From a bacterium (lineage in GTDB: Bacteria; UBA8248; JACPRG01; G963555815): a DNA stretch of 64,000 nucleotides. A model generated the notes under the pieces. That model had not been told where the DNA came from and made no database searches. It worked only from the letters and a program-made list of their open reading frames with translations. Position numbers and translations under genes: made by a program. The DNA lies in NCBI GenBank assembly GCA_965218795.1, contig OZ244653.1, positions 2,784,001-2,848,000 on the forward strand, written 5' to 3'. This document shows positions 183 through 39,157 of the stretch, piece after piece. Position 1 is the stretch's first letter, and each line of letters opens with the position of its first letter.

Positions 183-283
183 CACATCGGGAGACTGTCG
201 GCGAGCCCGTTATCCTGTTCGACGTTCAAGCGGGGTGGGGATGACCGGGGTCGCCTTCCGAGTCGCAGAGGGAACCCATTCAT
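182..283 (-). CDS. Possible 33-aa bridging ORF (MNGFPLRLGRRPRSSPPRLNVEQDNGLADSLPM)
   Basis: Its ATG overlaps the upstream stop (ATGA at 283-280) and its stop overlaps the TauE start (TGATG at 184-180). No recognisable family. Confidence 0.3.
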   Translation of the reverse strand: MNGFPLRLGRRPRSSPPRLNVEQDNGLADSLPM

Positions 284-3147
284 TCCGACCCCTCTTGGGG
301 AACGCTGTAAGCCCTCGGTTCCACCGGGAGAGGACGGTTCAGCCATAGTGGGCGTCTCAACCCCTGGGGCCCGGGCGCCGGGCGGGTTTTCTTGAGCCAT
401 TCCTTGTAAACCGCGAAGGATTTCTCGGTGTCCGCAAAAATGTCTCCATACTGGTCATCGGGTCCGGCGCGTTCGACGCGTACCTTCTGGTGCCAGCAGT
501 GCATGCCGCTGACAGGGTCGGGATGAACCGGGAACGCCGCGTTCTGGTGAACCCCGGGATCCTGCCACCAAATCCGGCTGGTGTCCGGGTCTTCGCTTTC
601 AAAGGGCTGGACCCCATGGACCTGCCGGAGGAACCATCCGTTTTCCCCTTTCTTCTCCATTCGGACGAGCGCAGACCCCAGGCGGCCTCCTTCGCTTTCA
701 TCCAGCCGCCACCGGCCGGCATGGTGTGAGCAGGCGAGCACGCCGGGCCGGATTCCGGCGGTCACCCAGACCCGATTCACGAAATATCCAATCTCCGTAT
801 GGACCTTGACGAGATCCCCGGTTTTCACCTCGAGCATCTCCGCGTCCCGGGGATGAATCCAAACCGGGTTTCGGTGAGAAATCTCCATGAGCCATTTTGC
901 GTTCGCCGACCGGGTATGGATCAGGGTGGGAAGCCTGAAAGTGGGCAGAAGGACGAACGCGCCGGGCTCCATGTCTTCCTGCTGGATGTGGCTGGCGATG
1001 TAGCCCGGCAATACGTGCTCGGGCCATCCCCACGTCTTCAGGGTCGAGGAGAAGAGTTCGAGCTTGCGGGAAGGTGTCGGAAATCCTTCGAGCAGACGCC
1101 CGCCCACCTCCACGCCGACGGCCTTTTCGTCTTTCCGAGCGACGCGAGATACCGGATCCACGGACACCCCTTCGGCCTCGTCCGGTGAAAACTCCCGGTT
1201 GTATTTTTCGAATATGTTCGATTGGATTTCGAACGCTCCATACTTCTGCATGTACTCCAGCGCCGAGAGCCCTTCGGTCGCGGCTTTATCCGGGAGTCCC
1301 GGAACGCTGTGATCGAACATCCATTGGTAGTATTCCCGGACTGTGACTTTCTCCCCCGCCCGATAGGGGGATTCGAAGTGCTTCCGGATACCCAGTTGCC
1401 CGTCGGGGTCGATTCGCCAGGAGAGCTCGATCCAGAATTCATCCTCTTCCCATACCTCGCCCGGATTGGCCTCATACGTATGCAGGACGGTCTTCCCCAT
1501 TTTCTCCATCGCAGCCCGAACAACGGGTTGCCGGAAGGAGACCCAGACGCCGGAGTGGGTCTCCTGACTCTGAACGTCATGGCGCTCTCCCGCCAGCCCC
1601 ATCGGAAGGACGTAGTCGGCGTAGAGGGCCGATTCATTCCACGTGGGAGTGAGCGCGGCGTGAAGTCCGACCTTCGCCTCGTCCTGGAGCGCCTCGATCC
1701 AGGTGAAGCCGTCCGGGTTGGTCCAGATCGGGTTGTAGACCCGGGTGAAGTAGACGTCGAGTTTTCCGCGTTCTTCCTTGAGAAAATGGGGAAGAAGAAA
1801 ACTCATCTCGTAGGTCGAGAGCGGATACTCCCGCGGGTAGATCAGCTCGTTCCAGAACTTGACGGCCGGAGGCGAATCGAAAGGCGCCGGCTTGATCTTG
1901 TTCCAGGAGGCAGGTGACGTTCCGCCCCGGGTTCCCACGCTGCCCGTCAAGACGGAAAGGAGGTACAGGGCGCGGGTGATCTGCCAACCGCCCAGATGGG
2001 CTGATGCGGCCCCCCGCCAGATATGGGCGCAGAAGGCCGAGCCCGCATTGGCGATGTCCCGGGCAACCTTCCGGATGTACGGGGCCGGAACGCCCGTTTC
2101 CGTTTCCGCGAATTCGGGCGTGAATCTTTCGTAGACCCGCTTGATTCGGTCGATAAAATCTTCGAAAGAGCCTCCCCGCATTCCCGCCTCTTCCCGAAGA
2201 TATTCCTCCCAGTTGACCCAGGTCTCCACAAACCTCCGGTCGAAGATGTCTTCCTTCAGAAGGACCTGAGCCAGGGCGAGGAGGAGGGCGCTTTCGGTCC
2301 CCGGGTAGGGGGCCATCCAGTAATCCGCCCGGGCGGCGGAGTTCGACAACCGGGGGTCGATGACGGCCAGTTTGGCGCCGTTCAGTTTGGCCTCGATGAT
2401 CCGTTGCGCGTGAGGATTGAAGTAATGCCCCGATTCCAGGTGCGCGCTCATCAAGAGGATAAACCGGGCGTCCCTGTGGTCCGGCGAGGGACGGTCCGAT
2501 CCCTGCCAGAGATAGTACCCGAGGCGCGCGGAGGCTGAGCAGACGTTGGTGTGACTGTTATGGCCGTCGATCCCCCATGCCTTCAGAACGCGCTCGACCG
2601 ATCCCTCGTAGCCCGGTCTGCCCACGTGATACATTACTTCGTCGGGTCGGCCGTCCTGGAGGCATTGCCGAATTCGCTGAGCAAGATCGTTCAGGGCGGT
2701 ATCCCAGCTTACGCGTTCCCACTTCCCGCTCCCGCGCGGGCCCACGCGCTTCTGGGGATAGAGGATACGGTCCGGGTCGCGAATCTGGTTGATGGTGGCG
2801 GGACCCTTCGCGCAGTTTCGTCCCCGGCTTCCCGGATGCATGGGATTGCCTTCAAACTTCCGGATCTCCATGCGATCCTTGTTCACATAGGCGAGAAGCC
2901 CGCAGGCCGCCTCACAGTTGAAGCAGATTGTCGGGACCAAAGCGTACCGGCTGGAGCTCTCCAGGCCTGCCGATGGAGGATCGGGGTCCGGCCAATCGTC
3001 CCAGCGGTCAGCGGGCGGATATTCAACAAATTGTCCTTCCGGAGCCAACCGTTCCACGGGACCCGGGGCGGGCTGTGGCAGACTTTCAATCAGCCCCATA
3101 CGCTCTGCGATGCGTTCAATCCAGCCGGGGTTCGGACGGTACGTCAT
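280..3147 (-). CDS. Molybdopterin (bis-MGD) oxidoreductase catalytic subunit, DMSO-reductase superfamily, Psr/Soe-like, no Tat signal
   Basis: CFNCEAAC...RNC 4Fe-4S motif, WERVSWD, SHTNVC candidate Mo-ligand region, DYVLP and C-terminal molybdopterin dinucleotide-binding domain. Likely start MTYRPNP at 3147, just after the upstream stop. Confidence 0.9.
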   Translation of the reverse strand: MTYRPNPGWIERIAERMGLIESLPQPAPGPVERLAPEGQFVEYPPADRWDDWPDPDPPSAGLESSSRYALVPTICFNCEAACGLLAYVNKDRMEIRKFEGNPMHPGSRGRNCAKGPATINQIRDPDRILYPQKRVGPRGSGKWERVSWDTALNDLAQRIRQCLQDGRPDEVMYHVGRPGYEGSVERVLKAWGIDGHNSHTNVCSASARLGYYLWQGSDRPSPDHRDARFILLMSAHLESGHYFNPHAQRIIEAKLNGAKLAVIDPRLSNSAARADYWMAPYPGTESALLLALAQVLLKEDIFDRRFVETWVNWEEYLREEAGMRGGSFEDFIDRIKRVYERFTPEFAETETGVPAPYIRKVARDIANAGSAFCAHIWRGAASAHLGGWQITRALYLLSVLTGSVGTRGGTSPASWNKIKPAPFDSPPAVKFWNELIYPREYPLSTYEMSFLLPHFLKEERGKLDVYFTRVYNPIWTNPDGFTWIEALQDEAKVGLHAALTPTWNESALYADYVLPMGLAGERHDVQSQETHSGVWVSFRQPVVRAAMEKMGKTVLHTYEANPGEVWEEDEFWIELSWRIDPDGQLGIRKHFESPYRAGEKVTVREYYQWMFDHSVPGLPDKAATEGLSALEYMQKYGAFEIQSNIFEKYNREFSPDEAEGVSVDPVSRVARKDEKAVGVEVGGRLLEGFPTPSRKLELFSSTLKTWGWPEHVLPGYIASHIQQEDMEPGAFVLLPTFRLPTLIHTRSANAKWLMEISHRNPVWIHPRDAEMLEVKTGDLVKVHTEIGYFVNRVWVTAGIRPGVLACSHHAGRWRLDESEGGRLGSALVRMEKKGENGWFLRQVHGVQPFESEDPDTSRIWWQDPGVHQNAAFPVHPDPVSGMHCWHQKVRVERAGPDDQYGDIFADTEKSFAVYKEWLKKTRPAPGPQGLRRPLWLNRPLPVEPRAYSVPQEGSE

Positions 3148-3157
3148 TCTCGGCTCC

Positions 3158-4711
3158 TCAACTCTGCGGGATCCGCTGCGGTATGGTGACCCACAGATGC
3201 GCGCCAATCAAGACACCGCCCAGCATCAGGAAAGCCGACAGGAAATCCGGCCAGCCCGGCCCCCACAGCAGGAGAACCCCTGGAGCGGCGTGTCCGAGGA
3301 CCAGGACGCCTATCCAGAATGGAAGCGCTCCTCTACCCCGCAGAATCTCCTGGGCGGCGCTCTTTGCGTCATTCGTCGCGTGGGGGAAGTACAGTTCGCC
3401 GAAAAACGCCAAAACGCTCAGAACGATACTGACGCGGAGAACCATTCTGAGCCGGTCGGCCGCCGCATCGTCAAAAACAGAATGGAACAGCAGAAGAACG
3501 GCGCCGCCTGCAAGGACGGCGTGCAAGAGCATATGGACCGAGAGCAGAGGGCTCTGCCAGAAATCCCGCCCTTTGGCCTGGGCGAACAGAAAGGCCGTAT
3601 AGACCGCCGTCAAGAAGGACAGAATGGTCCCGGGCCAGGTGAGATGTTTCTGGAATCCAGGTCCCCCGATGAGTCCTCCAATCAACCACAGCCCCAGCAC
3701 GCATCCGAAAAGGAGCAGGATGTATCCGCCCTTGACCAGCCAGGACTTCCATTGGGGGCGAAGGAAGATGTACAGGAACCGGTCGACCCGTCGGAGATCG
3801 TTCACCAGCAGTATGCAAGTGAGCAGCAGGAAGAGGAGGCCCATGATCGCACCGATCCATCCCATTGCGACCGCGGATTCTCCCGATCCCTGGATCATCA
3901 GCGGGATGCTGAAAGCGCCCGCCGCAATCGCCTTGGTCAGGATGTAAGAGGAGACCTTCCATCCCCAGACGACGCGCTCGCGCGGCGCGTCGTAGACTCG
4001 CCGGGCCAACTGGCCGAGCCATCCCCTCGTCTGGCGGGGCCCATTGGGCAAAGAATCCCGGCTGGACGGGGGCGGCCAGGGAAATTCCCCGGGCTCTCGG
4101 GTGGCTTCTCCCTGGCTCCACATGTAGGTGTCCGCAGTCGAAGCCGCCATAGGATCGAGGGACACCGTGTCCCCATCGATGTAGAAGAGTTTGGGCAGGG
4201 TCCCTTTTTCGGGTTTTCGAACTTGAACCGATTCCCGGATCGCGAGGCGTCCAATCTCGCTGTGCGGGTCTTCCAGATCACCGCAGATGATGGCGTGGGT
4301 CGGGCAAACCGTCACGCAGGGGGGCGCAAGGCCTACGTCGGTCCGGTGCGTGCAGTAGTTGCATTTGGCAGCCGTTTGCTCATATGGGTCGATGTAGATT
4401 GCGTCATACGGGCAGGCTTGGATACATGCCTTGCATCCGATGCATCTGCGGCTGTCGAAATCGACGATTCCGTCCGGGCGGGTAAACAGCGCCGTGACCG
4501 GGCAGATGTCGACGCAGGGCGCGTCCGCGCAGTGATTGCAGCGCATGACCGAGAAACTGCGCTTCGTGAAAGGGAATTCACCCTTCTCGATGTATTTCAC
4601 CCAGGTTCGATTGACCCCGATCGGAACGTCATGCTCTGCCTTGCAGGCGACCGTGCAGGCATGACAACCGATGCACTTCCGGTTATCGATGATGAAACCG
4701 TGCGTAACCAC
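3158..4711 (-). CDS. Fused 4Fe-4S ferredoxin (DmsB/PsrB-like) and NrfD/PsrC-type membrane anchor
   Basis: CIGCHAC, CNHCADAPC, CIGCKAC and CNYC clusters, then a hydrophobic multi-TM region with DL.R..RF and SWL..G NrfD-like motifs. Confidence 0.9.
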   Translation of the reverse strand: MVTHGFIIDNRKCIGCHACTVACKAEHDVPIGVNRTWVKYIEKGEFPFTKRSFSVMRCNHCADAPCVDICPVTALFTRPDGIVDFDSRRCIGCKACIQACPYDAIYIDPYEQTAAKCNYCTHRTDVGLAPPCVTVCPTHAIICGDLEDPHSEIGRLAIRESVQVRKPEKGTLPKLFYIDGDTVSLDPMAASTADTYMWSQGEATREPGEFPWPPPSSRDSLPNGPRQTRGWLGQLARRVYDAPRERVVWGWKVSSYILTKAIAAGAFSIPLMIQGSGESAVAMGWIGAIMGLLFLLLTCILLVNDLRRVDRFLYIFLRPQWKSWLVKGGYILLLFGCVLGLWLIGGLIGGPGFQKHLTWPGTILSFLTAVYTAFLFAQAKGRDFWQSPLLSVHMLLHAVLAGGAVLLLFHSVFDDAAADRLRMVLRVSIVLSVLAFFGELYFPHATNDAKSAAQEILRGRGALPFWIGVLVLGHAAPGVLLLWGPGWPDFLSAFLMLGGVLIGAHLWVTIPQRIPQS

Positions 4712-4859
4712 GAATCACTCCCTGCTGGATCAGGACGGGCATCCCCCATCCAATCATCCTGTTGGAACGCTGAAAATCCCCGCGCCGGCCGGTTGCAGGC
4801 AGACTTCAGCCCGCCCCCGGAGTGGCAAGGCGCTGTGGAGGAGCGGTTTCAGGAAAGTC

Positions 4860-6263
4860 TCAATCCGGAACGGTCTTGAATCCGGCAGCGCGCCAGGCAT
4901 TCATGCCGCCTGCGACGTTCTTGACTTCTTGATAGCCGTGTCGGAGCAGCAGGCTGGCACCGGTGCTGCTTCGGATCCCTCCGCCACAGATGATGGCCAG
5001 GGTATCATTTTTTGAAAACGGCAGTTCCAGGTCATTCTTCCACATTTTTTTGAAATTCATGTGGAATGCGCCCTCGATATGGCCGTTGTCCCACTCTTCG
5101 TCTTCGCGCACGTCGACCACCTGGAAGCCGTTGATTCCGTTTTCCGAAATGTATCGGTGTAGATCCTCGACGGAAATCTGGGGCAACTCCTTCCCGGCAA
5201 GGCCCGCTTCCTTCCATGCCTCCAGACCCCCTGCGACGAACCCCCGGACGTGACGGTCCAGTCCCAGGAATCCCATTTTGTGAATCGCCTCCTGAGCATC
5301 CCGGTCCTGTTCGCCAAGAAGAATGAGCGGCGTTTCAGGTTCAAGGACCCAGCCGATTCGCTGCTCGAATTCACCGGCCGAGAGCGGGATGTTCACAGCC
5401 CCGGCAACATGACCACGCCCGAAGTCTTCCGGCTCGCGCATATCGAGAAGTCGGACTTTCGGGTCCGAAACCATCAAGTCCCGGACCTCTGTAGACTGGA
5501 GCGGCTGGGCTTCAGGTTCTTCCATGGTCAAGGGGAGGCGGCCTTGGTTGATGGCGACGATTGGGTGAATATTCGCGGGCCGGTCCGGGAGGCCCTCGGT
5601 CATGTAGCGGACGAATGATCCCTGATCCGGCTGCCGGAAGGCCTGATTATGGCGCCGCTCAAAACCCAATGTTGTGGCAAACTTGCCACTCAGCGACCGT
5701 CCTCACGTGGAGCCGCCGACATGGCCGGGCCAGACTTCCGTGTAATCGGGAAGGTCCGCAATGCGGGGCAAAGCGCGGTCGAAGAGTTCGGCTGCGCCTT
5801 CCTCCGAGCGCTGCGCCAGATCGGGCCGCGCGATATCATCCACCAGGATGAAATCTCCGGTGCACAACATCCAGGGCTCCTCCGCCCGGCTCAAATCCGA
5901 AATGGCCACGGTGATGTGTTCCGGCCGGTGTCCCGGTGTGTGCATCATCTCCAGCCGTACGGATCCCATCTGGAGGGTATCGCCGTCTTTGACGCGCGTA
6001 GCGGGGTATTGGATATCTGCTAGATCATGGAGGATCAACTCGGCTCCGGCGAGATCGGCGAGGCGTCGGGCGCCGGAGACATGGTCGGCATGCAAATGTG
6101 TGTCAATCACGTATCGGATCTTGACACCTTGCTTCCGGGCGATGGCTGCAAAGGGTCCAGGATCCCACAGGGGATCGATGACCGCGCATTCACCGCCCCC
6201 GAGACAGCCGCATACATAAGAGACGCACCCGGTCTCCTTGCGGACGACCTGCTCGAAGAACAT
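4860..6263 (-). CDS. MBL-fold persulfide dioxygenase plus two rhodanese domains (CstB-like), probable selenoprotein (UGA at codon 187)
   Basis: ORFs 5703..6278 and 4860..5669 share a frame. The join reads WPGHVGGST-TGA-GRSLSGKFATTLGFERRHN. Motifs THLHADHVSG, TPGH, TGD. First rhodanese has no Cys, second has ICGGGIRS. GGAGGA RBS 7 nt before ATG 6263. Confidence 0.85.
5674..5689 (-). promoter_or_regulatory. Candidate bacterial SECIS hairpin (GUGGCA-AGUU-UGCCAC)
   Basis: Perfect 6-bp stem starting 13 nt after the in-frame UGA. The loop begins 19 nt after the UGA and has G at its second position. Confidence 0.65.
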
Positions 6264-6832
6264 CGTGAATTCCTCCATGCTGGATATCGCTGCCGGATAG
6301 CGCTCGGGATCCCGCCGACGCTTTTGCGGGACACAGAGACGAATTTTTCGACATCGGGAATCATATCGCCAGGGGACGGAAGCATTGAAACCATCCAGGA
6401 ATATCGACGGCTGGTCTTCAACGGTACAGAATGTGGGGCGGAGTTTACTTCAATTTGGGCGAAAGATGAAGCACTTTTTCTTTTCTCCGCAATCCGTTGC
6501 AATCCGGTTGGAGGGCGATCTGGACGGCCGGCCGCGATCGATGAATCCTACTGATTCACATTGCCTCGATTGTGGGTGCCTACAAGAACCTGTCGAATTC
6601 AGACATCTATCACGAGGCGAAGCGCATTGAGCTGGATCGGAGCAGAGAGGCGAATTCAGAAGAGGAAGAGGCGGTGGATGAGGGGCGGAGACATTGTAGC
6701 CGCATTTATGAACCTCCGAAGGAAAAAGTGAAACCTCCGCTTACCAGCCGGCCCTAAAAGCGTGCTATGATTTGTCAGGTGCACGTGCAGATTTTGCCCG
6801 AACGAAGGTTGCACCCCTGGAGGACAAGAACC

Positions 6833-7156
6833 ATGACGGATGAGCAATTGAACGCCTTTGAGAAACGCATGGATGAGCGGTTCGATAAAATGGATGAGCG
6901 GCTGCTCAAGATGGATGAGCGGTTGCTCAAGATGGGTGAGCGGTTCGATAAAATGGATGAGCGGCTGCTCAAGATGGGTGAGCGGTTCGATAAAATGGAT
7001 GAGCGGCTGCTCAAGATGGATGAGCGGTTCGATAAAATGGATGAAAGACTGAATGCCATCACGAAATGGTCGGCTACCTTCACCGAGTGGTCCGTTTCGA
7101 TTGACGAAAGGCTGGATAATCTCACGAAGAAAGTGGACAACTTCATATCCGCTTAG
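6833..7156 (+). CDS. Small coiled-coil tandem-repeat protein (MDERFDK / MDERLLK heptads)
   Basis: GGAGG RBS upstream of ATG 6833; heptad repeats with non-repetitive ends. Confidence 0.7.
   Translation: MTDEQLNAFEKRMDERFDKMDERLLKMDERLLKMGERFDKMDERLLKMGERFDKMDERLLKMDERFDKMDERLNAITKWSATFTEWSVSIDERLDNLTKKVDNFISA
6869..7048 (+). repeat. In-frame 21-nt tandem repeat, 8 full units plus a partial unit
   Basis: Units ATGGRTGAGCGGTTCGATAAA and ATGGATGAGCGGYTGCTCAAG abut with no spacers. Confidence 0.95.
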
Positions 7157-7406
7157 GGTTCGAATCCTTTCACCAGTTCCTATCTTGCCACGCCCGTAAG
7201 CCTTTCCGCGCTCCATTAAGTCGCTGAATTCGTCATTTCTGCACCGTTTTTCACCGTCGCAAATTACGACCTGTTTTCAATCTATTCTTGATTTCAAAAA
7301 ATTCCATTCATGCACCTCTACAGAATCCTTCGTTTTCCGGTTGTGTTTCCGGATCGGGTAACATGGTTTCGTTACAAGACCGGCAGCTGAATCGTCGTTC
7401 ATTCCT

Positions 7407-7862
7407 ATGCCGGCATCGAACGCCGCCGCGGATGACTTTGTGCAAGGAGGGTCACAACCGATGGAGTCCACCATCAGATTGTTCGAAGCCTTGGATTGGA
7501 TGCCCTTGCCCGGAAACCCGAATGTCAACGTAAAGGAGTTGCTGACGCGGGATGAGTGCGGATCCCTCGATCTGAAATTGTGGCGGATCTTGTTCGAGAA
7601 AATCGAGCCGGGCGCCGCCGTACTGCCTCATTTTCATGATACGGCCGAAGTGATCCACTTCATCAGCGGCGAGGTCCATGTCCTCGTCGGTGAGCAGAGG
7701 AGGGGTTGCCGGCCGGGAGACACCCTCATTGTCAAAAGCGGGACCATTCACAGTGTGGCCAACAAAGGCGAGTCGCCCACGACGCAGATCAGTTACTTCG
7801 TCCCAGCGGTCGGTCAGGATGAATTCGGGTTGACGGAGCAGGTTCCCGGAATTGAAGTTTGA
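7407..7862 (+). CDS. Cupin domain protein (start may be 7461)
   Basis: PHFHDTAEVIHFISGE and PGDTLIVKSGTIHSVAN cupin motifs; AAGGAGG precedes ATG 7461. Confidence 0.8.
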   Translation: MPASNAAADDFVQGGSQPMESTIRLFEALDWMPLPGNPNVNVKELLTRDECGSLDLKLWRILFEKIEPGAAVLPHFHDTAEVIHFISGEVHVLVGEQRRGCRPGDTLIVKSGTIHSVANKGESPTTQISYFVPAVGQDEFGLTEQVPGIEV

Positions 7863-7927
7863 GATGAAACCGCATTTGCGCTGAATCATTCCATCGGAGA
7901 TTTCCTGAAAACAAGGAGAACCTGACA

Positions 7928-9028
7928 ATGCAGGCAAAGGTATTCCGTGTGCCCATGGGGTCACCGGACGATATCTCCGGCGTCGTCGATTTGATTGAGA
8001 GCGGAGCGTGTCAACCGGAGGAAGTGGTTGCGGTCCTGGGGAAAACAGAGGGGAACGGCTGCGTGAATGATTTCGCCCGCGGTTTCAGCAACTTCGTTCT
8101 GGCGGATTATTTCGGGACGAAGATCGGGATCCCGCGGGACGATGTGACTCATCGGATTGCCCTGGTGATGTCGGGCGGCACGGAAGGCGCAATGAGCCCT
8201 CACTTCACGCTTTTCGCGAAGACGGAGGACGGCGAGGCCAATGGCGACAAACGACTGGCCATGGCGTCCGGGCGCACCCGGGATTTTCTGCCCGAGGAAA
8301 TCGGCCGCATGCCTCAGCTCCTGGAAACCGCCGATGAGGTCCGCCGCTTGATGGCGGAGGCACAGATTGAAAGTGTCGAAGACCTCCATTTCGTCCAGAT
8401 GAAGACGCCGTTGGTCACGACGGACCAGGCGGAAGACGCCTTGAGGCGGGGAAAAACGGTATGTGCCGACAATACGTACAAGTCGATGGGTGATTCGCGG
8501 GCGGCATCCGCCCTGGGGATTGCGCTCGTCACGGGTGAGGTCACGGAAGACAGGCTGAGCGATGAGGTCATCGGGCATGACGGGTCGCTGTACTCAGGCG
8601 TCGCGTCCACTTCTTCGGGTATCGAACTTCAGTGCAATGAGATTGTGGTTATGGGGAACAGCGCAGCGTGGGGGGGCGACCTTGTCATTGGACACAGCGT
8701 GATGAAGGATGCCCTGGACCGGGACGCCGTCAAGGAAGCGCTGGCGAGCGCGGGGCTTCTTTTTGATTGGAGCCTGTCGCCCGATCAGCGGGGGCGGGTG
8801 GTCAATATCCTGGCCAAGTGTGAGGCCAGTCCGGACGGCCGGATTCGCAGGCGCCGCCATACCATGCTGGACGATTCGGACATCAACAGCACGCGGCACG
8901 CGCGAGCCGTCGTGAACGCCGTCATCGCATCCATCGTGGGCGACCCGATGGTTTATGTTTCCGGTGGGGCGGAGCACCAGGGCCCTCCGGGTGGAGGGCC
9001 CGTGGCAGCCATCGTGCGGGTGGAATGA
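7928..9028 (+). CDS. atzD: Ring-opening amidohydrolase, cyanuric acid hydrolase/barbiturase family
   Basis: GKTEGNGCVNDF, MSGGTEG, SRAASALG, STSSG and YVSGGAEHQGPPGGGP motifs. Confidence 0.85.
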   Translation: MQAKVFRVPMGSPDDISGVVDLIESGACQPEEVVAVLGKTEGNGCVNDFARGFSNFVLADYFGTKIGIPRDDVTHRIALVMSGGTEGAMSPHFTLFAKTEDGEANGDKRLAMASGRTRDFLPEEIGRMPQLLETADEVRRLMAEAQIESVEDLHFVQMKTPLVTTDQAEDALRRGKTVCADNTYKSMGDSRAASALGIALVTGEVTEDRLSDEVIGHDGSLYSGVASTSSGIELQCNEIVVMGNSAAWGGDLVIGHSVMKDALDRDAVKEALASAGLLFDWSLSPDQRGRVVNILAKCEASPDGRIRRRRHTMLDDSDINSTRHARAVVNAVIASIVGDPMVYVSGGAEHQGPPGGGPVAAIVRVE

Positions 9029-38221: not shown

Positions 38222-39157
38222 TTGGAGCTGCTGAACTTTCTGATTCCCGTACTGCAAGCAGCGGTCCGTTCGGGCACGCCGATTCTCTTTGCCACCGTAG
38301 GAGAGATCTACGCGGAGCGTTCCGGGATTTTGAACCTGGGCGTCGAAGGCATGATGCTGGTCGGAGCGCTGGCGGGTTTTGCGGCTGCCAACCTGACGGC
38401 GAGTCCGGTTCTCGCGATAATTCTGGCCATGATCGCCGGTGGATGCATGGGGATGGTTCATGCGTTTGTCTGCATCGGCCTGCGGGCGGATCAGATCGTC
38501 AGCGGACTGGCTCTGACCCTTTTGGGAACGGGATTGACGGGATTCTTGGGACGGGCCATGGTCGGCAGGACGGCCGCGGGATTTTCGCCCGTCCTGATTC
38601 CGGGCCTCAGCGAGATTCCGGTCCTCGGGCCCGTTCTGTTCAGCCACGACTTGCTGGTGTACATTGGATACATTCTGGTTCCGATTGCATGGTTCGTTCT
38701 GTATCGCACCCGTTTGGGACTGGCCATCCGGTCCGTGGGAGAAAGTCCGGACGCCTCCGATGCAAGCGGCGTCAGCGTCAGGGGGATTCGGTATGGCTGC
38801 ACCTTTTTCGGAGGAGCCATGGCGGGGCTCGGGGGCGCTTACCTTTCGCTGGCCTATACCACCATGTGGGTGGAGCAGATGTCCGGCGGGCGCGGATGGA
38901 TTGCCCTGGCCCTGGTCGTATTTGCCGGTTGGAACCCGATGAAGGCCTTGTGGGGCGCCTATCTGTTCGGAGGGGTCGATTCGCTCAGTTTGTATCTTCA
39001 GGCCGGCGGAGCGCAGGTCTCGGCCCATATCCTCATGATGCTGCCCTATATCGTGACCATTCTTGTGCTTTGGATAGCGACCCGTCGAGTCGTCCGGGCT
39101 CGGGTCGGAGCGCCGGCCGCTCTGGGATTGGCCTACTCGCGGGAGGAAAAGCGCTGA
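38222..39157 (+). CDS. Nucleoside/sugar-type ABC permease
   Basis: ERSGILNLGVEGMM, GRGWIALALVVF, MLPYIVT, APAALG. Confidence 0.9.
   Translation: MELLNFLIPVLQAAVRSGTPILFATVGEIYAERSGILNLGVEGMMLVGALAGFAAANLTASPVLAIILAMIAGGCMGMVHAFVCIGLRADQIVSGLALTLLGTGLTGFLGRAMVGRTAAGFSPVLIPGLSEIPVLGPVLFSHDLLVYIGYILVPIAWFVLYRTRLGLAIRSVGESPDASDASGVSVRGIRYGCTFFGGAMAGLGGAYLSLAYTTMWVEQMSGGRGWIALALVVFAGWNPMKALWGAYLFGGVDSLSLYLQAGGAQVSAHILMMLPYIVTILVLWIATRRVVRARVGAPAALGLAYSREEKR

What the first reader, a model, noticed from the sequence alone, without database searches (positions are those of the whole stretch)
4860..6263. Hidden selenoprotein: CstB-like persulfide dioxygenase-rhodanese with UGA at the catalytic Cys position
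Seen: the separately listed MBL hydrolase and rhodanese ORFs are one reading frame broken by a single TGA (5705-5703). The junction reads WPGHVGGST-U-GRSLSGKFATTLGFERRHN with no other lesion. A 6-bp hairpin with a G-containing tetraloop lies 13-29 nt downstream, which fits bacterial SECIS geometry. Established: MBL-rhodanese fusions such as Staphylococcus CstB carry PGH-G-x-GS-x-C-G followed by T(L/I)G.E...N, and that Cys accepts the persulfide next to the iron site. Inference: this is a 467-aa enzyme with Sec187 in the dioxygenase loop and an ordinary Cys in the C-terminal rhodanese (ICGGGIRS). It would imply selenyl-sulfide chemistry in persulfide oxidation or sulfur transfer. I do not know of a characterised Sec form of this enzyme, but I cannot rule out prior bioinformatic listing.
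Basis: partly seen in the sequence, partly recalled or inferred. Interest (0 to 1): 0.9.

Follow-up and report, generated by a model that had tools for sequence, protein, structure and literature searches.

The report
Selenocysteine form of persulfide dioxygenase
Two genes annotated separately are really one sulfur-detoxifying enzyme whose key catalytic cysteine is replaced by selenocysteine, and this selenium form is widespread in bacteria yet missing from the selenoprotein catalogues I could read.

Summary
Window 6263..4860 (- strand) is one 467-codon frame interrupted only by TGA at 5705-5703.

The product is a CstB-type persulfide dioxygenase with a pseudo-rhodanese and a rhodanese domain. 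The TGA falls on an invariant Cys, the column of CstB C201. In S. aureus CstB that residue is persulfidated, S-sulfonated at the Fe(II) site and shuttled to the rhodanese Cys.

- The genome has selA, selB, a Sec-type selD and tRNA-Sec, and TGA is its commonest stop.
- The same TGA occurs in 6 of 7 homologue-bearing genomes of this phylum. It also occurs in 14 Bacillota-class genomes, in a stand-alone dioxygenase.
- Of the 120 best short database hits, 119 are cut at this column, one residue before the Cys/Sec position.
- Downstream codons are under purifying selection.
- A hairpin starts 13 nt after the UGA in all 20 TGA genes. It shows one compensatory pair change (C-G/A-U) between lineages, and frozen synonymous sites confined to the stem.
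- Hairpin folding energy alone is not exceptional.

No such family appears in the 2026 catalogue of 119 prokaryotic selenoprotein families, and no NCBIfam model reaches its cut-off.

Verdict: a real, apparently uncatalogued, widespread selenoenzyme. Selenium incorporation itself is untested.

The parts
4860..6263 (-). Whole gene: 467-codon CstB-like persulfide dioxygenase / pseudo-rhodanese / rhodanese with one internal UGA. The true stop is TGA at 4862-4860.
   Evidence: translation. Pfam Lactamase_B plus 2 rhodanese stretches. PDB 3tp9 E 6e-72 and 3r2u E 5e-69 over the full length. AF2 pLDDT 92.9, TM 0.90 to 3tp9.
6272..6276 (-). Shine-Dalgarno-like GGAGG, 8 nt upstream of ATG 6263.
   Evidence: Read. 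The relatives' database ORFs start at MFFEQ/MWFEQ.
5508..6263 (-). Persulfide dioxygenase (MBL-fold) domain, residues about 1-252. It includes the HxHxDH motif and the mobile loop that carries Sec187.
   Evidence: H56, H58, D60, H61, H112 and H181 are invariant in 41 aligned homologues (A2). The domain boundary is approximate, taken from the model's secondary structure.
5703..5705 (-). In-frame UGA, predicted Sec187, followed by Gly188. It occupies the column of CstB C201-G202.
   Evidence: The column is Cys in 16 of 16 rows of A1 and 41 of 41 rows of A2 (query entered with C for U). The TGA is conserved in 6 genomes of this phylum and 14 of a Bacillota class. No difference was listed at this place in contigs of 3 studies.
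5674..5702 (-). Candidate bacterial SECIS: 13-nt spacer (5702-5690), then stem GUGGCA / UGCCAC (5689-5684 and 5679-5674) with loop AGUU (5683-5680).
   Evidence: A hairpin occurs in the same register in 20 of 20 TGA genes. Pair 5 is C-G here and A-U in the Bacillota lineage. Synonymous sites are frozen only within the stem. Folding energy alone is not significant.
5190..5507 (-). Middle pseudo-rhodanese homology domain, residues about 253-358, with no active-site Cys.
   Evidence: second rhodanese stretch; alignment to 3tp9 and 3r2u. Boundaries are approximate.
4863..5189 (-). C-terminal catalytic rhodanese domain, residues about 359-467. It holds Cys426 (TGT 4988-4986), Arg431 and Arg386, which align with CstB C408, R413 and R370.
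   Evidence: 3r2u alignment, 24-residue tag offset. C426, R431 and R386 are invariant in A2. The CstB residue roles come from PMC12934615.
3158..4711 (-). Context, next gene downstream: a fusion of a 4Fe-4S dicluster protein and an NrfD-type membrane anchor.
   Evidence: Synteny with the dioxygenase gene is kept in G004 and G006, and was not found in L011, L012, L017 or L018.
280..3207 (-). Context: a 975-aa molybdopterin (bis-PGD) oxidoreductase, PhsA/DmsA-like but below every NCBIfam family cut-off.
   Evidence: No twin-arginine motif is visible in the printed N-terminus.

Best explanation
This is one gene for a selenocysteine-containing persulfide dioxygenase-sulfurtransferase of the CstB type.

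**Decoding (inferred).** UGA 5705-5703 is decoded as Sec by SelB and tRNA-Sec, directed by the hairpin that starts 13 nt downstream.

**Chemistry (inferred by homology to CstB).**
1. Sec187-Gly188 sits on the mobile loop that in CstB carries C201-G202, a built-in glutathione mimic beside the Fe(II).
2. Sec187 takes sulfane sulfur from a low-molecular-weight persulfide, giving a selenenyl persulfide (Se-S-H).
3. The Fe(II)/O2 centre oxidises that sulfur to a Se-sulfonate.
4. The loop swings to the rhodanese domain, where persulfidated Cys426, flanked by Arg386 and Arg431, attacks and releases thiosulfate. Both residues are regenerated.

Sec would offer three advantages: a lower pKa and better nucleophilicity for sulfur uptake, a better leaving group at the release step, and easy reversal of over-oxidation next to an O2-activating iron.

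**Shown here:** gene structure, homology, conservation of the UGA and the hairpin, presence of the Sec machinery, and coding constraint downstream.

**Inferred:** Sec insertion and all of the chemistry.
For: **1. The UGA replaces an invariant Cys.**
- The column is Cys in 3tp9 and 3r2u, in 15 of 15 and 40 of 40 aligned full-length homologues, and in 119 of the 120 best full-length hits.
- With the 24-residue tag offset, 3r2u residues match every residue named for CstB (G198, P200, C201, G202, K203, R370, C408, R413).
- C201A and C408A CstB are inactive in O2 consumption (PMC12934615 abstract and passages).

**2. The TGA is conserved.**
- In this phylum, 6 of the 7 genomes with a homologue (51 searched) have TGA at the codon, at 63-70% aa identity. 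The seventh, at 40% identity, has TGC.
- In a 201-genome sample of a Bacillota class, 14 genomes carry a stand-alone dioxygenase with TGA at the same column.
- Of the 120 best short database hits, 119 stop at this column, and 118 of them end in GST. Twelve of 12 fetched end in PGHV[GAS]GST.

**3. Translation continues past the UGA.**
- Downstream dN is 0.29-0.38 against dS 0.86-3.0 in 6 of 6 pairs.
- The Arg codon two positions after the TGA uses 4 synonymous codons in 5 genes.
- The first possible restart codon lies 11 codons downstream, inside the conserved TLGFER motif.

**4. The Sec machinery is present.**
- The genome has SelA, SelB, SelD with its own in-frame TGA, and tRNA-Sec.
- All 14 Bacillota-class carriers have SelA, against 129 of 201 genomes in that sample.

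**5. The hairpin is conserved.**
- It has the same register in 20 of 20 TGA genes, 18 of them with 6 or more uninterrupted pairs. Only 6 of 19 Cys-form genes have any stem of 4 or more pairs there, and none exceeds 5.
- Pair 5 is C-G in this phylum, A-U in the Bacillota lineage and G-U in one genome.
- In the 14 Bacillota genes, only 4 of 94 invariant-residue codons have an invariant third base. Three of the four lie in the stem. The fourth lies 9 codons after the other UGA of those genes, the same offset as one of the stem codons.

**6. TGA is not reassigned.** It ends 1387 of 2161 long frames in this genome, and it ends this gene too.

**7. The TGA is not a sequencing error.** Contigs from 3 studies span the gene with 3, 11 and 12 differences, and none is listed at 5703-5705.
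Against: - No direct evidence of selenium in the protein.
- The hairpin's folding energy is ordinary: z = -0.05. Cys-form regions fold with similar energies.
- Rfam gives no match.
- Two genomes of one genus (G004, G006) have a C.A mismatch in the second stem pair.
- Within this phylum the synonymous-site signal is only moderate. The window at the TGA ties with two other regions for highest nucleotide conservation, and a stretch 43-51 codons downstream has stronger third-position conservation.
- The covariance model built from the Bacillota hairpins also hits Cys-form genes (19.8 and 17.8 bits), so much of its score reflects coding similarity.
- There is only one clearly compensatory pair change, between two lineages.
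- The only RNA-library contig covers 5378-5651 and not the UGA.
- No type III SQR was found in the genome, so the source of persulfide substrate is unidentified.
Confidence: 0.92

Rival explanations
1. UGA terminates translation. The locus would then make two separate proteins: a 186-aa truncated MBL protein and a rhodanese protein restarted downstream.
For: Public gene calls list it this way: 186-aa ORFs, including this genome's own. TGA is the usual stop in this genome.
Against: - The truncated product would lack the last ~65 residues of the dioxygenase domain, including the conserved T-x-G-x-E-R-x-x-N block.
- The 11 codons between the TGA and the first possible start are conserved as protein, with synonymous variation.
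- That first possible start (TTG 5669) lies inside the conserved motif.
- The break falls exactly on the catalytic Cys in 20 genes of two lineages.
Confidence: 0.03
2. The gene is a pseudogene created by a simple nonsense mutation, or the TGA is an assembly error.
For: None specific. One relative (G006) has a copy broken by frameshifts and N runs.
Against: - The TGA sits at the same codon in 6 genomes of this phylum and 14 of a Bacillota class, and in hundreds of database ORFs.
- dN/dS is well below 1 downstream.
- Contigs of three studies show no difference listed at the TGA.
Confidence: 0.01
3. UGA is read through, but not mainly as Sec. It could be read as Cys carried on tRNA-Sec, or as Trp/Cys by near-cognate suppression, so the working enzyme would be a Cys or other form.
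For: Nothing here measures what is inserted. From recall, not from any call: Cys can be inserted at Sec codons under selenium limitation in some systems.
Against: - Complete Sec machinery is present in all carriers tested.
- A SECIS-like hairpin under selection is hard to explain without SelB.
- Keeping UGA plus a hairpin over long divergence, when TGC/TGT is one mutation away, argues that Sec itself is selected.
Confidence: 0.04

Closest known systems
Staphylococcus aureus CstB (PDB 3r2u; mechanism in PMC12934615)
   Same: - Three-domain architecture of dioxygenase, pseudo-rhodanese and rhodanese.
- The loop G-S-x-[C/U]-G-[K/R] aligns residue for residue.
- Rhodanese C408, R413 and R370 align with C426, R431 and R386.
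- The same reaction is expected: two RSSH converted to thiosulfate.
   Different: - Sec replaces C201.
- About 31-32% identity over the structure-aligned region.
- The CstB C20 column is Cys here, but is also Sec in 12 of the 14 Bacillota-class genes.
- No cst-type operon context was seen; the neighbours are an FeS/NrfD fusion and a molybdopterin oxidoreductase.
Alicyclobacillus acidocaldarius beta-lactamase/rhodanese protein (PDB 3tp9)
   Same: Best structural and sequence match over the full length: phmmer E 6e-72, Foldseek TM 0.90 and rmsd 2.4 A.
   Different: It has Cys at the loop position. The entry title states no function.
BpPRF, the persulfide dioxygenase-rhodanese fusion of Burkholderia phytofirmans (PDB 5ve3-5ve5), and single-domain ETHE1-type dioxygenases (4chl, 4ysb, 8zbd)
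   Same: The same MBL-fold Fe(II) dioxygenase domain.
   Different: Per PMC12934615, these use free glutathione persulfide as substrate, and the Cys-Gly loop is unique to CstB. They have a two-domain or one-domain architecture.
SelTryp, the kinetoplastid selenoprotein (PMC1557815)
   Same: A selenoprotein with an MBL-fold domain followed by two rhodanese domains.
   Different: It is eukaryotic, with a 3'-UTR SECIS. Its Sec lies in a C-terminal CxxU tail, not in the dioxygenase loop. The protein here ends ...FKTVPD with no such tail.
[quoted passage not shown]
   Same: All follow the Cys-to-Sec replacement logic in enzymes that handle sulfane sulfur.
   Different: None has an MBL-fold or dioxygenase domain. 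Here the rhodanese Cys is an ordinary TGT. NCBIfam models for the seleno-rhodaneses score far below their cut-offs: 35 against 115 bits, and 31.5 against 805 bits.

Membership tests
Bacterial selenoprotein gene (UGA decoded as Sec) | In-frame UGA aligned with Cys in homologues | tested here: met
   The column is Cys in 119 of the 120 best full-length hits and invariant in alignments A1 and A2.
Bacterial selenoprotein gene (UGA decoded as Sec) | UGA conserved in orthologues, with coding constraint downstream | tested here: met
   6 plus 14 genomes; dN 0.29-0.38 against dS 0.86-3.0.
Bacterial selenoprotein gene (UGA decoded as Sec) | Stem-loop shortly downstream of the UGA with G/U in the apical loop (bacterial SECIS) | tested here: met
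   same register in 20 of 20 genes, one compensatory pair, frozen synonymous sites in the stem. Caveats: folding energy is not significant and Rfam gives no hit. No dedicated bSECIS program was available.
Bacterial selenoprotein gene (UGA decoded as Sec) | selA, selB, selC and selD present in the genome | tested here: met
   SelA is present in 49 of 51 genomes of the phylum and in 14 of 14 Bacillota-class carriers.
Bacterial selenoprotein gene (UGA decoded as Sec) | Selenium demonstrated in the protein | not testable with these tools
   Needs 75Se labelling or mass spectrometry.
CstB-type persulfide dioxygenase-sulfurtransferase | MBL-fold dioxygenase domain with intact metal-binding motif | tested here: met
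   The HxHxDH motif, H112 and H181 are invariant in A2.
CstB-type persulfide dioxygenase-sulfurtransferase | Three-domain order: dioxygenase, pseudo-rhodanese, catalytic rhodanese | tested here: met
   (TM 0.90 to 3tp9 over the whole chain).
CstB-type persulfide dioxygenase-sulfurtransferase | Cys-Gly dipeptide on the mobile active-site loop (C201-G202) | tested here: met
   The residue is U-G instead of C-G, which is the variant feature. The loop is the least confident part of the model (pLDDT 67), in keeping with a mobile loop.
CstB-type persulfide dioxygenase-sulfurtransferase | Rhodanese catalytic Cys with flanking Arg residues (C408, R370, R413) | tested here: met
   C426, R386 and R431 are invariant.
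CstB-type persulfide dioxygenase-sulfurtransferase | Persulfide- and O2-dependent thiosulfate formation | not testable with these tools
   Needs an enzyme assay.
SelTryp | Sec in a C-terminal CxxU motif | tested here: not met
   The C-terminus is ...FKTVPD, and the only internal UGA is at residue 187.
Rhodanese-like selenoproteins (forms 1-5) | Sec in or next to the rhodanese active-site loop | tested here: not met
   The rhodanese Cys426 is encoded by TGT, and the NCBIfam seleno-rhodanese models score far below their cut-offs.

The most novel reading that the evidence does not exclude
This would be the first selenoenzyme in which Sec is a covalent substrate carrier at a non-heme Fe(II) dioxygenase site. 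It would cycle through a selenenyl persulfide and a Se-sulfonate (selenosulfate-like) adduct that is physically shuttled to a rhodanese Cys. The family is old, widespread (at least five phyla by source names) and overlooked. Some Bacillota-class members carry a second Sec at the CstB C20 column. An even bolder possibility is that the enzyme's real substrates include selenium species such as selenopersulfides.
Probability: 0.45. Interest if true: 0.85.

Novelty: new variant of a known kind. Interest (0 to 1): 0.72.

Why it matters
- It would add an enzyme class, MBL-fold persulfide dioxygenases, to the known selenoproteome. None of the 119 families in the 2026 catalogue has this fold.
- Hundreds of public gene calls that split the gene in two would need correcting.
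- The Sec sits exactly on the residue that the 2026 CstB work identifies as the enzyme's own covalent substrate. Nature has therefore made the Cys-to-Sec swap that a mechanistic chemist would want.
- Comparing Sec and Cys forms would test the self-S-sulfonation and loop-shuttle mechanism directly. It would also show what selenium buys next to an O2-activating iron.
- It ties selenium availability to sulfide detoxification in environmental and symbiotic bacteria.

Tried and rejected
- **Pattern scans of genome contigs and metagenome contigs with the protein**. These returned only 35-40% identical Cys forms, plus one irrelevant 25-residue match.
- **Degenerate DNA pattern in viral contigs**: 0 hits.
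- **tblastn against plasmids**: 757 records, all below 60% identity. One hit that looked split (H5) proved to be a separate small rhodanese gene followed by a full-length Cys-form gene.
- **Rfam at E <= 10 over 5500-5800**: nothing.
- **Hairpin folding energy against shuffles**, and against Cys-form regions: not discriminating.
- **Ungapped MAFFT alignment of the 20 SECIS regions** (A3). It puts the 3' arms out of register between the two lineages, so I did not run the count of structure pairs on it. Pair counts come from my own script.
- **Covariance model R1**. It finds the window's site, but also Cys-form genes, so I do not count its E-value as independent evidence.
- **Other selenoprotein genes in this genome, for SECIS comparison.** The FdhA family has no in-frame stop. 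The selD hairpin has a different sequence.
- **Type III SQR selenoprotein model in the genome**: no match.
- **ESM Atlas look-up of the 186-aa fragment**: only generic MBL clusters of about 189-191 aa. I did not check whether those are truncated Sec forms.
- **RNA library X17**. Its single contig covers 5378-5651 only, so it says nothing about read-through or expression.
- **Phylum-wide sample around G055** (400 other genomes): only G055 itself carried the TGA form.
- **** repeated the sample, because G054 and G055 are in one class.
- **** failed on a parameter and was redone through.
- **Supplementary tables** of the selenoprotein papers, including the BSepDB family list and the deep-Sep lists, were closed. 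They could contain this family.
Full report
**Observation**

On the minus strand an MBL-fold ORF (6278/6263..5703) ends in TGA at 5705-5703. It is in frame with a rhodanese ORF (5669..4860). Reading TGA as U gives a single 467-residue protein from ATG 6263, with U187 and no other interruption. Three things favour ATG 6263 over ATG 6278:
- GGAGG lies 8 nt upstream of it.
- Database ORFs of relatives begin MFFEQ/MWFEQ.
- This genome's own gene call is a 186-aa protein.

**What the protein is**

- Pfam finds Lactamase_B plus two rhodanese stretches.
- The best solved relatives match over the full length: 3tp9 (E 6e-72) and 3r2u from S. aureus (E 5e-69). Persulfide dioxygenases follow (BpPRF, ETHE1).
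- An AlphaFold model built on 41 homologues has pLDDT 92.9 and pTM 0.90. It superposes on 3tp9 with TM 0.90.
- The least confident segment is residues 181-190, the loop that carries U187.

In the 3r2u alignment, allowing for its 24-residue tag, the chain residues fall exactly on those named for CstB in the 2026 preprint PMC12934615: G198, P200, C201, G202, K203, R370, C408 and R413. I read that paper's abstract and passages. The paper does not cite 3r2u, so equating 3r2u with CstB rests on this numbering match. Under this alignment:
- U187-G188 corresponds to C201-G202.
- C426, R431 and R386 correspond to C408, R413 and R370.

According to the preprint, C201-G202 is a built-in glutathione mimic 3.4 A from Fe(II). 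It is persulfidated, S-sulfonated in an Fe- and O2-dependent way, then carried about 27 A to persulfidated C408 to give thiosulfate. C201A and C408A are inactive in O2 consumption.

**Is the UGA a Sec codon?**

The column is Cys in every aligned full-length homologue. That is 15 of 15 in A1, 40 of 40 in A2, and 119 of the 120 best full-length database hits; the remaining hit did not match my pattern.

The genome has the full machinery:
- SelA and SelB.
- A SelD that itself carries one in-frame TGA.
- A tRNA-Sec with anticodon tca.

TGA is not reassigned. It ends 1387 of 2161 frames of 400 or more codons, and it ends this gene itself.

It is not a sequencing error. Contigs from three different studies span 4800-6350 with 3, 11 and 12 differences, and none is listed at 5703-5705.

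**Conservation in this phylum**

Of 51 genomes searched, 7 have a homologue at E <= 1e-40. Six of them (G000, G004, G006, G014, G015, G049; 63-70% identity) have TGA at this codon. The seventh (G041, 40% identity) has TGC. G006's copy is also broken by frameshifts and N runs, and G015's is cut by a contig end.

Downstream of the TGA, dN is 0.29-0.38 against dS 0.86-3.0 in all six pairs of the four complete genes. The Arg codon two positions after the TGA appears as CGG, CGC, CGT and CGA in five genes. The codons just past the UGA are therefore read as protein. SelA is present in 49 of the 51 genomes; the two misses are 67% and 79% complete.

**Conservation elsewhere**

- A search for shorter proteins with residues 1-191 gave 820 clusters at E <= 1e-30.
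- Of the best 120, 119 end in ..ST at this column, one residue before the Cys/Sec position, and 118 of them end in GST.
- Source names place some in Acidobacteriota, Chloroflexota and Gemmatimonadota MAGs. One cluster of 139 members includes marine survey data.
- GenBank lists such proteins as ordinary short 'MBL fold metallo-hydrolase'.
- No full-length protein above 52% identity exists in that collection. The closest relatives are therefore all called as split genes.
- In a FastTree of 120 truncated forms and 119 Cys forms (N-terminal domain only), all truncated forms fall in one clade of 131 tips together with 11 Cys forms. Parsimony needs three changes.
- The tree's sequences are the top hits of two searches, so that sample is biased.

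**A second lineage**

Two Bacillota MAGs, reached through loci, carry a stand-alone dioxygenase of about 245-255 aa with no rhodanese domain and two in-frame TGAs. In a 201-genome sample of their class:
- 14 genomes have TGA at the same column (PGA[YF][AS]GST-U-GR[DE]LSGK...).
- 12 of those 14 have a second TGA at the column of CstB C20. That is the other Cys the preprint reports as persulfidated, and it is Cys20 in the window's protein.
- All 14 carriers have SelA, against 129 of 201 genomes in the sample. Relatives are not independent, so this is support rather than a statistic.

**The hairpin**

By energy alone it is unremarkable: -9.5 kcal/mol, z = -0.05, and 87 of 200 shuffles fold as well. 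Cys-form regions fold with similar energies. Rfam gives no match.

The evidence comes from comparison.
- All 20 TGA genes have a stem starting 12-13 nt after the UGA (15-16 nt from its first base): GUGGCA-AGUU-UGCCAC in this phylum and GUGGAAA-GGUCG-UUUCCAC in the Bacillota lineage. Eighteen have 6 or more uninterrupted pairs.
- The two exceptions, G004 and G006 of one genus, have a C.A mismatch in pair 2.
- Only 6 of 19 Cys-form genes have any stem of 4 or more pairs in that region, and none exceeds 5.
- The fifth pair is C-G in one lineage and A-U in the other. G-U occurs in one genome, where Gly GGA became GGG. The encoded residues differ (FAT against VVST).
- In the 14 Bacillota genes (aa identity 0.59-0.98, median 0.66), only 4 of 94 codons with an invariant degenerate residue have an invariant third base. 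Three of the four are stem codons (AGT, GTT, TCC).
- The fourth lies 9 codons after the other UGA, the same offset as stem codon 195 from its own UGA. I did not fold that region across the 14 genes.
- The flanking codons use 3-4 different third bases.
- If the four invariant sites were placed at random among the 94, the chance that 3 or more hit the four stem codons is 361 in 3,049,501. This is my calculation.
- Within the window's own phylum the signal is weaker. Codons GGC AAG TTT GCC are identical in 5 of 5 genes, against 19% of 213 comparable columns gene-wide. The 30-nt window at the TGA ties with two other regions for the highest conservation among 985 windows.
- A covariance model built only from the Bacillota hairpins finds 5705-5662 as its single hit in the 64-kb window (25.8 bits). 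It also hits Cys-form genes, so I do not weigh it.
- A diverged contig in one metagenome run keeps the stem with an AGGU loop. This rests on a single loose-end record.

From memory, not from a call: in the E. coli fdhF SECIS the essential loop G and U lie 23-24 nt from the U of UGA. Here they lie at 24-25.

**Mechanism**

The gene structure and homology are shown. The chemistry is inferred from CstB.
1. Sec187 accepts sulfane sulfur.
2. The Fe(II)/O2 site oxidises it to a Se-bound sulfonate.
3. The loop delivers it to Cys426-persulfide.
4. Thiosulfate leaves.

Rival readings (termination giving two proteins, a pseudogene, or non-Sec read-through) are each contradicted by the conservation, the coding constraint and the selected hairpin. 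I give them 8% together.

**Context**

The next genes downstream on the same strand are a 4Fe-4S/NrfD fusion (4711..3158) and a 975-aa molybdopterin oxidoreductase (3207..280), which is below every NCBIfam cut-off. The FeS/NrfD neighbour is kept in G004 and G006, the same family, and was not found in the loci of G014, G015, G049 or G041. This suggests a link to sulfite, thiosulfate or polysulfide electron transfer, but I did not test that.

**Novelty**

- I read Table 1 of the 2026 review of the prokaryotic selenoproteome (PMC13188914, section 7, parts 1-2). Its 119 families include five rhodanese forms and a type III SQR subtype, but no MBL-fold protein or dioxygenase.
- Term searches for lactamase, hydrolase, dioxygenase, glyoxalase and MBL found no such family in the main texts of PMC12013277, PMC2398784, PMC5029168, PMC9312934, PMC1976440 and PMC13326102.
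- Six of the eight library searches bore on a Sec form of this enzyme (one search was for CstB). They found only SelTryp, a kinetoplastid MBL-plus-rhodanese selenoprotein whose Sec is in a C-terminal CxxU tail.
- No NCBIfam model reaches its cut-off.
- Supplementary tables were closed, so an earlier listing there cannot be excluded.

I class this as a new variant of a known kind: a Sec form of a known enzyme family, and seemingly a new selenoprotein family.

Noticed in passing
L038 (G055), L067-L079; for example L036:988-1749(-): A Bacillota-class stand-alone persulfide dioxygenase (about 245-255 aa, no rhodanese) carries two in-frame TGAs in 12 of 14 genomes. One is at the CstB C201 column and one at the CstB C20 column. 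The usual PGH motif before the loop reads PGA[YF] in these genes.
   Followed up: partly
window 280-4711 (-): Directly downstream of the dioxygenase gene lie a 4Fe-4S/NrfD fusion gene and a 975-aa molybdopterin oxidoreductase with no visible twin-arginine signal. Both are below all NCBIfam cut-offs. They could be a cytoplasm-facing sulfite, thiosulfate or polysulfide oxidoreductase linked to the dioxygenase. Synteny is kept in G004 and G006 only.
   Followed up: partly
G000:C1:5147448-5148413 (-), locus L003 (outside the window): The genome's selD carries one in-frame TGA (a Sec-type SelD) with its own downstream hairpin of different sequence. The FdhA homologues of this genome have no in-frame stop.
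   Followed up: partly
window about 5550-5580 (-), 43-51 codons after the TGA: In the five genes of this phylum, the strongest run of invariant third codon positions lies here (RPANI..IVAINQG region) and not at the hairpin: up to 0.75 over 8 codons against a gene mean of 0.15. Unexplained.
   Followed up: no
window 6656-7216, both strands: A tandem-repeat region encodes a 129-aa coiled-coil-like ORF on the + strand (MDERLLKMDERFDK repeats, 6767-7156). Long repeat-derived ORFs overlap it on the - strand.
   Followed up: no
window 38551-38636 (+): ARAGORN calls an 86-nt tRNA-Lys (ttt), about 10 nt longer than a usual tRNA-Lys. It could hold an insertion or be a miscall.
   Followed up: no
window 7407-9028 (+): A cupin-domain gene is followed by an AtzD/TrzD-type ring-opening amidohydrolase (Pfam E 7e-148), on the strand opposite to the dioxygenase gene. 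The cupin gene is also next to the dioxygenase gene in G004 and G006.
   Followed up: no
L013/L014/L016 (G006): This relative's copy of the gene is split by frameshifts and a run of N, yet keeps the TGA and the hairpin. This is probably assembly quality rather than decay.
   Followed up: no
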